Source of the DNA: Vallitaleaceae bacterium
GTDB lineage: Bacteria; Bacillota; Clostridia; Lachnospirales; Vallitaleaceae
DNA length: 64,000 bases
Assembly: GCA_963677625.2 (NCBI GenBank)
Contig: CAXXSW010000003.1
Span: forward strand, 25,594 to 89,593
Reading direction: 5' to 3'
Shown here: piece after piece, positions 49,455 through 51,573 of the stretch
Layout: each line of letters begins with the position of its first letter
Position numbering within the stretch: position 1 is the first letter of the stretch
The notes under the pieces: generated by a model
The model's database searches: none
Told to the model about the DNA's origin: nothing
What the model saw: the letters and a program-made list of their open reading frames with translations, nothing else
Program-made: the position numbers and the translations under genes

Positions 49455-51179
49455 CTAATCAGTAACTGCACCAAGGTCTGCCGACTTTACCAGACGTGCA
49501 TATTTATTCAAGACTCCACGTTTATAACGATAATCCGGTTGGATCCAAGACTTCCTTCTCTGATCAAGTTCATCATCTGATAACAAAACATCCAACTGAT
49601 TATTACTTGAATCAATCCTAATGATATCACCTGACTTAATCAAACCAATAGGACCGCCAACAAAGGCTTCTGGTGCAACATGTCCAATGACAAAACCGTG
49701 AGATCCTCCTGAATACCTACCATCGGTCAGCATAGCAATTTTACCGCCTAAACCTTTACCAATAACAATAGCAGAAATTGACAACATTTCCGGCATACCT
49801 GGACCACCTTTTGGTCCCTGATACCTGATAACTACAACATCACCTTCCACAACCTCGTCTCTTAGAATCGCCTGAGTTGCTTCTTCTTCTGAGTCATAGA
49901 CCTTTGCCGGTCCTTCTAACTTCTTGACACTAAGGCCACTCATTTTGCAAACTGCTCCATTCGGTGCTAAATTTCCTTTCAAAACATATAAGGGGCCTTC
50001 CGGTTTAAGAGGCTGTTCAAAATCACGAATGATTTCCTGATGACTTGCAAGATCCGGTACACTCTCCAAATTCTCAGCAAGAGTTTTACCGGTTACAGTC
50101 ATACATTCCCCATGTAATAACCCTTTGGCAAGAAGTATTTTCATTACACCAGCCACACCACCAACATCACTTAAATCTTGCATAACATACTTGCCACTAG
50201 GTTTTAAGTCTGCCAAATGAGGGACTTTTTTCCTGATTCGCTCAAAGTCATTATAGTTAAGCTCTACATCTACGGCATGGGCAATTGCAGGTAAATGAAG
50301 AAAGGCATTAGTCGATCCTCCAAGAGCCATAACAACTGTAATAGCATTCTCAAAAGCCTTCTTCGTCATAATATCTTTAGGTGTCAGGCCAAGTTCCATC
50401 ATTCGGATAAGCTGTTCACCAGCCTCTTGACTTTCTGTCTTTTTACCACCTGAAACGGCTGATGTTGATGCATTATTAGGAAGAGACATACCCATAGCTT
50501 CAATAGCTGATGCCATAGTATTGGCCGTGTACATACCACCACAAGAGCCAGGTCCTGGGCAAGCCTTACACTCAATATCATGTAATTCCATCTCATCGAT
50601 TTCTCCCTTATTATACCGGCCTACCGCTTCAAAGGCAGAAACAATATCAATGTCCTGACCACTACGTTTGCCTGGCTGTATGGTACCACCATATACGAAG
50701 ATTGCAGGTAGATTCATTCGTCCAATTGCAATCATACATCCTGGCATATTTTTATCGCAGCCACCTATAGCTACTAAGCCATCCAAACGCTCGGCACCGA
50801 CAACCGTCTCAATTGAATCTGCAATAATTTCACGACTCGGTAGGGAATACCTCATACCTTCATGTCCCATAGCGATACCATCAGATACGGTAATCGTATT
50901 AAAGATCAAGGGGGCTCCTCCTCCACGTCTTATACCTTCTTTGGCTTCAAGAGCCAGTTTATCGATATGCATATTACAAGGAGTTACTTCACTCCATGTA
51001 GACGCTACTCCAACCATAGGTTTTTTAAAATCTTCATCCTTAAAACCTACCGCTCGAAGCATAGCTCGATTGGGTGTTCGGTTTACTCCTTCACTAATAT
51101 CTTTACTTTTATATCTAAGATCTTTATAAGATTGCTTACTTACTTCATGTGAACAACAGTTTTTTTCATGACATGCCAT
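49455..51179 (-). CDS. ilvD: Dihydroxy-acid dehydratase, [2Fe-2S]-type sequence
   Basis: [71 protein letters not shown]; start moved to ATG 51179 (GGGAG RBS). Confidence 0.96.
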
Positions 51180-51260: not shown

Positions 51261-51289
51261 ATTATGACCTAATTGATAATTATTGTCAA
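51261..51289 (-). promoter_or_regulatory. ilvD sigma-A promoter overlapped by a Fur-type box
   Basis: TTGACA (51289-51284)-17-CATAAT (51266-51261); TGATAAT-T-ATTGTCA at 51274-51288, one mismatch to the 7-1-7 Fur consensus. Confidence 0.65.
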
Positions 51290-51507
51290 TTAAACTCAAG
51301 TAAAAAAATAACAGCTCCAGGTCCGTAATCTTTCAAACGCGCCTTGAGCTGCTGGTTTTTCTTTGATTTTCTGTTATAGACTTTATCACTTTTATGATAT
51401 CCTGTACCACCTTTCACAATACCTTCATGTCGACTAAGCTTTCCTTTTCGCTTCAACATCAAGTCTTTACCTGAAATGGTTGCAACTTTTAGTTTCTTGG
51501 CCATCAT
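51286..51507 (-). CDS. Small basic protein, candidate ArfA/BrfA-like ribosome rescue factor made from a non-stop mRNA
   Basis: 73 aa, 19 K/R; [19 protein letters not shown]; own promoter; intrinsic terminator within codons 53-69. Confidence 0.6.
51302..51351 (-). terminator. Intrinsic terminator inside the 73-aa ORF, upstream of its stop codon
   Basis: CAGCTCAAGG...CCTGGAGCTG stem (9/10) followed by TTATTTTTTT; stop codon is at 51288-51286. Confidence 0.75.
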
Positions 51508-51544
51508 GTACCTTCTTTCTATACAAACTCATTCTTACACTCTC

Positions 51545-51573
51545 ATTGTATATGCGGCCATCTTACCTGTCAA
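51545..51573 (-). promoter_or_regulatory. Near-consensus sigma-A promoter of the 73-aa ORF
   Basis: TTGACA (51573-51568)-17-TACAAT (51550-51545). Confidence 0.85.

What the first reader, a model, noticed from the sequence alone, without database searches (positions are those of the whole stretch)
51286..51573. Small basic gene with a terminator inside its ORF: candidate new ArfA/BrfA-like ribosome rescue factor
Seen: a near-consensus promoter (TTGACA-17-TACAAT), an RBS and a 73-codon ORF with 19 K/R and the segment [22 protein letters not shown]-rich hairpin (51351-51312) plus TTATTTTTTT lies in codons 53-69, so termination would occur 4-6 codons before the TGA; the tail AVIFL is encoded by the hairpin end and U-tract. 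Established: E. coli arfA and B. subtilis brfA (yqkK) are ~70-aa basic proteins made from non-stop mRNAs, so tmRNA normally destroys them and they accumulate only when trans-translation fails; ArfA carries a KGKGSYxRK motif. Inference: this may be a clostridial back-up rescue factor with the same feedback logic. I do not recognise it as a named family.
Basis: partly seen in the sequence, partly recalled or inferred. Interest (0 to 1): 0.82.

Follow-up and report, generated by a model that had tools for sequence, protein, structure and literature searches.

The report
Stop-less small basic gene, ArfA/BrfA-style
A small, very basic, uncatalogued protein gene of a Vallitaleaceae clostridium runs into its own conserved transcription terminator before any stop codon, as the back-up ribosome-rescue genes arfA and brfA do, so it is a strong but untested candidate for a new rescue factor, with stop-codon-bearing relatives beside phage tRNA genes.

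Summary
In detail: promoter, RBS, a 72/73-codon basic ORF, and a strong hairpin plus U-tract inside the frame.

- **Real gene.** dN/dS of the core is 0.05-0.13. The family is rare and uncatalogued, with no Pfam, NCBIfam or PHROG match. About 45 small proteins are known.
- **Terminator inside the frame.** 17 of 19 distinct long-form relatives have one (dG <= -15 kcal/mol), against 0.9% of long ORFs in the same genome. The stem covaries.
- **Unselected tail.** After the U-tract there are frameshifting indels, and a stop is gained or lost between near-identical strains. The window's TGA belongs to the -35 box of the ilvD promoter.
- **Genome context.** tmRNA, SmpB, RqcH, RF1 and RF2 are present; ArfA and ArfB are absent.
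- **Short relatives.** These have a conserved C-terminus and a real stop. They lie on phage contigs, inside or beside tRNA arrays and near a PTH2 peptidyl-tRNA hydrolase.
- **Homology.** None is demonstrable to ArfA, BrfA or DUF7230. Only a rare heptad, Y-x-R-K-x-K-(H/K), matches ArfA's mRNA-channel segment.

Non-stop, tmRNA-gated expression is likely (about 0.75). Rescue-factor activity is plausible (about 0.5) and untested.

The parts
51545..51573 (-). Sigma-70-type promoter of the small gene: TTGACA (51573-51568), 17-nt spacer, TACAAT (51550-51545)
   Evidence: 11 of 12 matches. The same TTGACA-17-TACAAT stands before the homologue in L001.
51511..51515 (-). Ribosome-binding site GAAGG, 6 nt upstream of the second ATG (51504)
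   Evidence: Sequence read. Spacing and the homologue L001 favour the second ATG as the start.
51286..51504 (-). Nominal CDS: 72 codons (MAKKLKV...LEFN) plus TGA. The mechanical ORF starts one ATG earlier, at 51507.
   Evidence: P0001, 100% identity. dN/dS of the core is 0.05 against L001.
51331..51477 (-). Conserved protein core, residues 10-58: ISGkDLl..s.GKl.RH...VK.GtG.HKS.K.YnRKsK..q.lK. It includes the heptad YNRKSKK.
   Evidence: Alignments A1 and A5: invariant K22, V30, G33, G35, R45; nearly invariant L15, H37, Y43, K46. Heptad rarity.
51310..51353 (-). Terminator hairpin inside the reading frame. The 5' arm encodes QQLK and the 3' arm encodes GAV.
   Evidence: dG -18.3 kcal/mol. The conserved structure covaries in 13 homologues.
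51302..51311 (-). U-tract TTATTTTTTT. The predicted transcript 3' end is near 51305-51302, in codons 67-68 of the 72-codon form.
   Evidence: Every long-form homologue has a T-run at the same place. The 3' end itself is inferred, not measured.
51286..51301 (-). Unconstrained tail (LLEFN) and an incidental in-frame TGA (51288-51286). The TGA lies inside the -35 hexamer TTGACA of the next promoter.
   Evidence: A 1-nt indel in the U-tract shifts the frame in L001, whose ORF then runs 20 more codons. Tails differ in length and sequence in all relatives.
51261..51289 (-). Promoter of the downstream ilvD gene (TTGACA-17-CATAAT). This is context, not part of the small gene's function.
   Evidence: It is conserved in L001. 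ilvD is 49455-51179 on the minus strand.

Best explanation
The gene encodes a small, basic (pI about 10.5), largely unstructured protein that is made from a built-in non-stop mRNA. Transcription from its own strong promoter ends at the intrinsic terminator inside the reading frame, so ribosomes run to the 3' end with no stop codon. In healthy cells tmRNA-SmpB rescues these ribosomes, tags the product (tag AEDNLAFAA) and has it degraded. When trans-translation is saturated or lost, an untagged product of about 66 residues accumulates. It then acts as a back-up ribosome-rescue factor. Its basic C-terminal half ([17 protein letters not shown]) probes the empty mRNA channel of ribosomes stalled at mRNA 3' ends, and the N-terminal half recruits a class I release factor to hydrolyse the peptidyl-tRNA. 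This is what ArfA and BrfA do. Phage relatives carry a normal stop codon and would supply the same activity constitutively during infection.

Shown here: the gene is real; the terminator is conserved inside the frame; the tail is unselected; the genome has tmRNA, SmpB, RF1 and RF2 and lacks ArfA and ArfB.

Inferred: the transcript end, tmRNA tagging, ribosome binding and release-factor recruitment.
For: - Coding gene under purifying selection: dN/dS 0.05, 0.07 and 0.13 in three pairs.
- In-frame terminator in 17 of 19 distinct long-form relatives, dG -15 to -25 kcal/mol, with the T-tract starting 4-60 nt before the stop. The same procedure finds this in 11 of 1200 long ORFs of the same genome.
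- The stem is kept by compensatory changes. 90.8% of cells are paired against 79.3% in shuffles (0 of 500 reach it). 9 of 15 pairs show double changes. Slid controls give 38-62%.
- The tail after the U-tract is not coding. Tails differ in length and sequence. WIN and L001 differ by a 1-nt frameshift. L015 and L020 are identical over 160 nt except that TAG becomes AAA. The window's TGA lies in the ilvD -35 box. In L003 the tail overlaps a convergent RelA_SpoT gene.
- The design is the one proven for brfA, where an intrinsic terminator in the ORF gives 62 of 71 codons and the product accumulates only in a smpB deletion strain (PMC6881298).
- Own genome: tmRNA, SmpB, RqcH, only RF1 and RF2 among RF-1-domain genes and so no ArfB, and no ArfA. 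This matches the B. subtilis set-up with the BrfA slot vacant.
- hhalign aligns the family's K-S-K-K-D-Y-x-R-K-x-K-H with ArfA residues 34-48, KGKGSYMRKGKHGNR. That stretch includes the Lys-His pair reported to contact 16S U534 in both ArfA and BrfA (PMC6881298). The heptad [YF]xRKxK[HK] occurs twice in 1.47 million residues of this genome's long ORFs, but in 19 of 44 family members and 10 of 14 ArfA sequences.
- Short relatives with real stops lie within or beside tRNA arrays in four independent contigs, and downstream of PTH2 on two IMG/VR phage contigs. That points to a translation-related role.
Against: - There are no experimental data of any kind. Transcript 3' ends could not be examined.
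- There is no demonstrable homology to ArfA (hhalign probability 0.7-5%), to any PDB chain or to DUF7230 (7-38%). The function rests on analogy and one short motif in a low-complexity basic region.
- The AF2 model is of low confidence (pLDDT 69, pTM 0.22) and Foldseek finds nothing.
- In 5 of 17 relatives the stop lies only 4-9 nt into the U-tract, so some transcripts there may include it.
- The window's own protein has K, not H, at the last heptad position.
- The family is rare: 1 of 399 evenly drawn Clostridia genomes and 5 of 8 genomes of the genus. All eight genus genomes have RqcH, so it is dispensable.
- Linkage to phage tRNA islands is association only.
Confidence: 0.5

Rival explanations
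1. The gene is gated by tmRNA through a non-stop mRNA, as above, but its product is not a release-factor-dependent rescue factor. It would be another stress effector that should appear only when trans-translation fails. Possibilities are a ribosome-silencing or hibernation peptide, an RNA-binding or nucleoid-binding protein, or a regulator of mRNA decay.
For: All the architectural evidence supports the gating and says nothing about the activity. There is no detectable homology to ArfA or BrfA. The genome already has RqcH as a back-up. A small basic disordered protein could bind any nucleic acid.
Against: The only proteins known to use this design are rescue factors (PMC6881298). The heptad shared with ArfA's mRNA-channel segment is very rare by chance. 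Phage relatives sit in tRNA and PTH2 neighbourhoods, which fits peptidyl-tRNA turnover better than hibernation.
Confidence: 0.2
2. This is an ordinary small basic protein whose normal terminator happens to overlap the 3' end of its ORF. Enough transcripts read through, or end after the stop, for the full-length protein to be the functional product. tmRNA then plays no regulatory role.
For: In 5 of 17 relatives the stop is within 4-9 nt of the start of the T-tract. Phage and other short forms work with a normal stop and a conserved C-terminus. Terminator efficiency was not measured.
Against: In 12 of 17 relatives the stop lies 14-60 nt beyond the start of the T-tract. Tails are not conserved, are frameshifted, or overlap other genes and promoters. 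Stops are gained or lost between near-identical strains. The functional core ends before the hairpin, as the short forms show. Placement inside the frame is about 100 times more frequent than the genome background.
Confidence: 0.12
3. The family is at root a phage host-takeover or anti-defence peptide that acts on the host translation apparatus, for example to keep ribosomes free when defence nucleases cut tRNA or mRNA. The chromosomal long forms would be domesticated or silenced remnants, with the in-frame terminator keeping a harmful product low.
For: Short forms lie on IMG/VR viral contigs of 128 and 83 kb. They sit inside or beside tRNA arrays and near PTH2, a metallophosphoesterase, ClpP and a ligase. 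Distribution in bacteria is patchy. There is a truncated second copy in G005.
Against: Chromosomal copies are under strong purifying selection. They have their own strong promoters and lie in ordinary, varied, non-prophage neighbourhoods. A rescue function in phage would not contradict the main explanation; it would extend it.
Confidence: 0.1

Closest known systems
BrfA (YqkK) of Bacillus subtilis, an RF2-dependent alternative ribosome rescue factor (PMC6881298; PDB 6SZS)
   Same: Gram-positive host. About 70 codons, basic, no GGQ motif. A rho-independent terminator inside the ORF, so that only about 62 of 71 codons are on the mRNA (here about 66 of 72). A stand-alone gene. Narrow taxonomic distribution. 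The host also has tmRNA, SmpB and RqcH and lacks ArfB.
   Different: No sequence similarity was found: the family profile against all PDB chains gave nothing at E <= 10. I could not obtain the BrfA sequence for a direct alignment. BrfA has N-terminal helices alpha1 and alpha2; the model here shows only short, low-confidence helices. BrfA is confined to the B. subtilis group. This family is in Vallitaleaceae, Fusibacter, unnamed metagenomic lineages and phages. Activity here is untested.
ArfA (YhdL, Pfam PF03889) of E. coli and other beta/gamma-proteobacteria
   Same: 72-codon basic protein made from a non-stop mRNA, with a variable, unselected C-terminal tail. ArfA homologues range from 69 to 110 aa. 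It shares the heptad Y-x-R-K-x-K-H, which lies in ArfA's mRNA-channel segment (residues 39-45), and a G-x-G just upstream.
   Different: No PF03889 match for the window protein even at E <= 10, and none for 23 family members at E <= 1. hhalign probability is only 0.7-5% over 9-15 columns. ArfA's N-terminal ALLHDPLF region has no counterpart. The spacing between G-x-G and the heptad differs. arfA mRNA is truncated mainly by RNase III cleavage of its hairpin (my own knowledge), whereas here the element is a canonical terminator with a U-tract.
DUF7230 (Pfam PF23876), tiny basic peptides of T4-like phages and some proteobacteria, function unknown
   Same: Very basic small peptides carried by phages, ending in ...RKQKHKGK.YDY, like the short forms here (...RKQKHKK......KHRKNYDE). 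One family member, P0020, hits the profile at E 9.5e-4. hhalign of the short forms against five DUF7230 peptides gives probability 38% and E 3.4e-4 over 12 columns.
   Different: The hit is below Pfam's cut-off (19.7 against 27 bits), and the window's protein does not hit at all. The match covers the basic motif only. DUF7230 peptides are 38-52 aa and lack the ISGkDLL..S.GK..RH...VKSGTG half. DUF7230 gave no match reaching its cut-off in 401 Bacillota genomes (one sub-threshold hit of 18.2 bits).

Membership tests
ArfA (PF03889) | Significant match to the ArfA profile or sequence | tested here: not met
   hmmscan of the window protein finds no family at E <= 10. Twenty-three members scanned at E <= 1 give no ArfA hit. 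The six-frame search of the genome finds none at E <= 1. hhalign probability is 0.7% and 5%. BLASTP gives E 6.8. As a positive control, the ArfA profile finds six ArfA PDB sequences.
ArfA (PF03889) | Conserved basic C-terminal motif KGKGSYxRKxKH that lies in the mRNA channel | tested here: inconclusive
   The heptad Y-x-R-K-x-K-(H/K) and an upstream G-x-G are present, but with different spacing. The heptad is rare by chance: 2 occurrences in 1.47 million residues.
ArfA / BrfA functional class (rescue factors made from non-stop mRNA) | mRNA truncated inside the ORF by a conserved RNA element upstream of any stop | tested here: met
   At the sequence level, a terminator hairpin plus U-tract lies in frame in 17 of 19 long forms. 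It shows covariation and the tail is unselected. The transcript end itself was not measured.
ArfA / BrfA functional class (rescue factors made from non-stop mRNA) | Product destroyed through tmRNA tagging and accumulating when ssrA or smpB is lost | not testable with these tools
   tmRNA and SmpB are present in the genome. No expression data were available.
ArfA / BrfA functional class (rescue factors made from non-stop mRNA) | Binds non-stop 70S ribosomes and recruits RF2 or RF1 to hydrolyse peptidyl-tRNA; has no GGQ motif of its own | not testable with these tools
   No GGQ is present in the sequence. RF1 and RF2 are present. Binding and hydrolysis need biochemistry.
BrfA (YqkK) | Sequence similarity to B. 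subtilis BrfA | tested here: inconclusive
   The family profile against all PDB chain sequences gives no rescue-factor hit at E <= 10. The BrfA structure 6SZS is cited in PMC6881298. I could not confirm that its chain is in the searched set, nor obtain the sequence for a direct alignment.
DUF7230 (PF23876) | Score at or above Pfam's gathering cut-off (27 bits) | tested here: not met
   The window protein has no hit. The best member, P0020, scores 19.7 bits over 17 residues. hhalign probability is 7-38%.
ArfB (YaeJ) / RF-1 domain | GGQ-containing RF-1 domain | tested here: not met
   No Pfam hit. The genome has only two RF-1-domain genes, both 349-360 aa, which are RF1 and RF2.

The most novel reading that the evidence does not exclude
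This is a previously unrecognised lineage of release-factor-dependent ribosome-rescue factors. It is either independent of ArfA and BrfA or a very deep branch of an ArfA/DUF7230-like superfamily held together by the Y-x-R-K-x-K-H mRNA-channel motif. It exists in two regulatory states. Chromosomal copies in Clostridia (Vallitaleaceae, Fusibacter and others) are gated by tmRNA through an in-frame terminator. Copies in the tRNA islands of large phages carry a normal stop and lie beside PTH2; they would keep host ribosomes recycling during infection, for instance when defence nucleases cut mRNA or tRNA.
Probability: 0.3. Interest if true: 0.85.

Novelty: new variant of a known kind. Interest (0 to 1): 0.7.

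Why it matters
Release-factor-dependent back-up rescue factors are known from only three narrow families: ArfA, ArfT and BrfA. A survey of more than 15,000 genomes found ArfA/BrfA in 5 and ArfB in 5 of 2,633 Firmicutes (PMC11633108). Clostridia are therefore thought to rely on tmRNA and RqcH alone.

[quoted passage not shown] This gene is a concrete candidate. It is easy to test, being about 66 residues long and having one terminator to mutate. It would also show that a terminator placed before the stop codon can serve as a search key for such factors.

The phage relatives in tRNA islands raise a further question: do phages bring their own rescue factor? trans-Translation is also an antibiotic target, so unrecognised back-ups bear on predicting resistance.

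Tried and rejected
- **ilvD leader or attenuator.** Rejected. Relatives lie upstream of unrelated genes (a LacI regulator, a convergent RelA_SpoT gene, GGDEF proteins and others), and ilvD has its own promoter after the terminator.
- **Known RNA family.** Rfam finds nothing real; the only hit is a SNORA81 chance match at E 0.71.
- **Non-coding sRNA with a chance ORF.** Rejected by dN/dS of 0.05-0.13 and by protein-level conservation down to 30% identity.
- **Known protein family.** Pfam, NCBIfam and PHROGs give no hits. The PDB sequence search gives none.
- **Structure.** The AF2 model is of low confidence and Foldseek against the PDB gives 0 matches, so structure comparison was uninformative.
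- **Complementary distribution with RqcH or ArfB within the genus.** Not seen. All 8 genus genomes have RqcH and SmpB, and the six sampled for RF-1-domain genes all lack ArfB, whether or not they carry the gene.
- **GenBank phages.** tblastn with P0049 gives no match. IMG/VR gives only 2 loci.
- **First genome-contig scan with the broad alignment.** It was repeated with closer sequences.
- **BrfA sequence.** It is not retrievable from the paper's supplement, where the alignment is an image.

Full report
**1. The observation**

All elements sit on the minus strand.
- A TTGACA-17-TACAAT promoter lies at 51573..51545.
- A GAAGG ribosome-binding site lies at 51515-51511.
- An ORF runs from 51507 or 51504 to 51286. 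The second ATG has the better spacing and matches the gene calls in relatives, giving 72 aa, MAKKLKV....
- The protein has 19 K/R against 5 D/E and a pI of 10.4.
- Codons 52-69 are occupied by a hairpin (51353-51310, -18.3 kcal/mol) and UUAUUUUUUU (51311-51302).

The simple terminator scan misses this hairpin only because its apical part is larger than the scan's loop limit. The in-frame TGA (51288-51286) lies inside the -35 hexamer of a second promoter, TTGACA-17-CATAAT at 51289..51261, which serves the downstream ilvD gene. Rfam finds nothing real in the region.

**2. A real gene of an uncatalogued family**

Pfam and NCBIfam give nothing for the protein at E <= 10. PHROGs gives nothing either.

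The word-indexed search found only three relatives. The exhaustive search found 19 cluster representatives. A profile search found 43 proteins of 47-99 aa; none has a Pfam domain and the only names given are 'hypothetical protein'.

The conserved core is I-S-G-k-D-L-l-x-x-S-x-G-K-l-g-R/K-H-x-x-x-V-K/R-S/T-G-T/C-G-x-H-K-S-K-K-x-Y-x-R-K-x-K. Core dN/dS is 0.05 (window against L001), 0.07 and 0.13, so the gene is translated and under selection.

Titles of related records place the window's genome in the Vallitaleaceae (Clostridia). A further relative is in Fusibacter sp. JL216-2. The gene is in 5 of 8 genomes of the genus but in only 1 of 399 evenly drawn Clostridia genomes. It is rare and patchy, as BrfA and ArfT are.

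**3. The terminator inside the frame is a family trait**

I collected DNA for the relatives. I then scanned each from the conserved R-K onward for the best hairpin followed by a T-tract.
- 17 of 19 distinct long-form genes have a hairpin of -15 to -25 kcal/mol whose T-tract starts 4-60 nt upstream of the in-frame stop. Two more have weaker ones (-14.5 and -11.2 kcal/mol).
- The same procedure on 1200 long ORFs of this genome gives 11 such cases, or 0.9%.
- On an alignment of 13 homologous hairpin regions, RNAalifold recovers one stem. 9 of its 15 pairs show double compensatory changes.
- 90.8% of cells are paired, against 79.3% in column shuffles (0 of 500 reach it) and 38-62% when the partner is slid by 1-3 columns.
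- The 5' arm is the conserved N-Q-Q/R-L-K codons. When these change (CAG to CGA or CAA), the 3' arm changes with them.

**4. What follows the U-tract is not coding sequence**

- C-terminal tails differ completely in length and sequence. They are rich in F/L/I, the translation of U-runs.
- Window and L001 (89% identical proteins) differ by a 1-nt indel in the U-tract. The frames diverge there, although the DNA stays alignable because it is the ilvD promoter.
- L015 and L020 are identical over 160 nt except that TAG becomes AAA directly after the U-tract. The nominal ORF is thereby extended by 17 codons.
- In L003 the tail overlaps the 3' end of a convergent RelA_SpoT gene.
- The distance from the T-tract to the stop is scattered (4-60 nt, mean about 31 nt), roughly as expected for random stops in AT-rich DNA.
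- Caveat: in five genes the stop is only 4-9 nt into the U-tract, so part of their transcripts may contain it.

**5. Genome background**

The genome has one tmRNA (tag AEDNLAFAA) next to smpB. It has RqcH. It has exactly two RF-1-domain genes of RF1/RF2 size, so no ArfB, and no ArfA.

This is the B. subtilis configuration without BrfA. A published survey found ArfA/BrfA in 5 and ArfB in 5 of 2,633 Firmicutes (PMC11633108).

**6. Short forms in phages**

A second type of relative ends in a conserved ...RKQKHKKNTRDLL, or ...KHKKDW...KHRKNYDE, followed by a real stop and then any terminator.
- Two such contigs (128 kb and 83 kb) are IMG/VR viral genomes.
- There the gene follows PTH2 (peptidyl-tRNA hydrolase), an RNaseH-like gene and a metallophosphoesterase, and is followed by ClpP and a ligase.
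- In four independent contigs the gene lies between tRNA genes or within about 2 kb of tRNA genes: L026, L027/L028, L036 and L039.
- None of 14 chromosomal long-form loci has a tRNA gene nearby.

This links the family to translation. It also shows that the functional core ends before the hairpin-encoded part.

**7. Relation to known factors**

- The family profile finds no PDB chain at E <= 10, whereas the ArfA profile finds all ArfA chains.
- hhalign against an ArfA alignment gives probability 0.7% and 5% for the short forms.
- In both cases hhalign aligns the same stretch: family KSKKDYTRKQKHKKN with ArfA 34-KGKGSYMRKGKHGNR-48.
- That ArfA segment includes the Lys-His pair that, according to PMC6881298, contacts 16S U534 in both ArfA and BrfA.
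- The heptad [YF]xRKxK[HK] occurs twice in 1.47 million residues of this genome's long ORFs, in 19 of 44 family members and in 10 of 14 ArfA sequences. The window's protein has YNRKSKK.
- One member weakly hits DUF7230 (19.7 bits, below the 27-bit cut-off).
- I fetched DUF7230 peptides from T4, RB69, Aeh1, KVP40 and Acj133. hhalign gives 7-38% over the same basic motif.

Homology to any of these is therefore unproven. The resemblance is one short, rare, functionally suggestive motif. The AF2 model is of low confidence (pLDDT 69, pTM 0.22) and Foldseek returns nothing. That is what one expects of a peptide that folds only on the ribosome, but it is not evidence for it.

**8. Reading**

The non-stop, tmRNA-gated design is well supported by comparative sequence evidence, at about 0.75. 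The missing piece is a measured transcript end.

The activity is inferred from four things: the fact that only rescue factors are known to use this design (PMC6881298), the vacant back-up slot in the genome, the ArfA-like heptad, and the phage tRNA/PTH2 neighbourhoods. I put the rescue-factor reading at about 0.5. The rivals are:
- a tmRNA-gated protein with another activity (0.2);
- an ordinary gene whose terminator merely overlaps its end (0.12);
- a phage-derived translation-directed peptide whose chromosomal copies are remnants (0.1).

**9. Novelty and literature**

Literature searches found no description of a clostridial or phage-borne factor of this kind.

Earlier notes of this scan list other unrelated small basic genes with the same design, and suggest that DUF7230 is ArfA-like. 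I treated these as leads. I tested only the link between my family and DUF7230, and it is weak.

I rate the finding a new variant of a known kind: a new protein family using the brfA-type gene design, with phage relatives that have a stop codon.

Noticed in passing
window 51261-51289 (-): The in-frame TGA of the small ORF is part of the -35 hexamer (TTGACA) of the ilvD promoter, TTGACA-17-CATAAT. In the closest relative the same hexamer is read in another frame and gives no stop.
   Followed up: yes
window 51140-51179 (-); L001 3353-3385: The dihydroxy-acid dehydratase (ilvD) gene begins with an unusual Cys-rich N-terminal extension, [13 protein letters not shown]..., ahead of the usual ...SKDISEG start region. 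The extension is conserved in the relative L001. A 9-codon out-of-frame mini-ORF (ATGAAAAAAACTGTTGTTCACATGAAGTAA) overlaps it.
   Followed up: no
L039 2015-6061 (IMG/VR UViG_2597490295_000013, 128 kb; the same contig is filed as Candidatus Izimaplasma HR2): A phage island reads tRNA-Ser, PTH2 peptidyl-tRNA hydrolase, small ORFs, RNaseH-like (PF04308), metallophosphoesterase, the short-form family gene, two small ORFs, ClpP. In the related L029 and L031 a PF01068 ligase gene follows. It looks like a translation or RNA-repair module. A contig deposited as a bacterial MAG contig appears to be a phage genome.
   Followed up: partly
L026 212-449; L027 859-1138: In marine metagenome contigs the short-form gene sits inside dense tRNA arrays: between tRNA-Ile and tRNA-Ala in L026, and between tRNA-Thr and tRNA-Asn in L027. 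I did not check whether these contigs are viral.
   Followed up: partly
L010 / L024 (G005:C110:3892-4047): One genome of the genus holds a second, truncated copy of the gene. It lacks the N-terminal part and the hairpin region (...[16 protein letters not shown]...) and has one TGA inside the match. It is probably a pseudogene fragment.
   Followed up: no
L003 2540-2592: The untranslated 'tail' of the homologue overlaps the 3' end of a convergent small alarmone synthetase (RelA_SpoT) gene. The in-frame terminator probably serves both genes as a bidirectional terminator.
   Followed up: no
L052 (phage T4, NC_000866.4 161589-161696, minus strand): A 39-codon ORF, MNNLVAKHNFNKASVHKDKKKAFKESNRKQKHKGKVYDY, matches DUF7230 at 45 bits. 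Equivalent ORFs are in RB69, Aeh1, KVP40 and Acinetobacter phage 133. I did not check whether these are annotated in the records.
   Followed up: no
genome contig C12 74905-75723 (outside the window): smpB (74905-75330) and ssrA/tmRNA (75378-75723, tag AEDNLAFAA) are adjacent, in the usual arrangement.
   Followed up: yes
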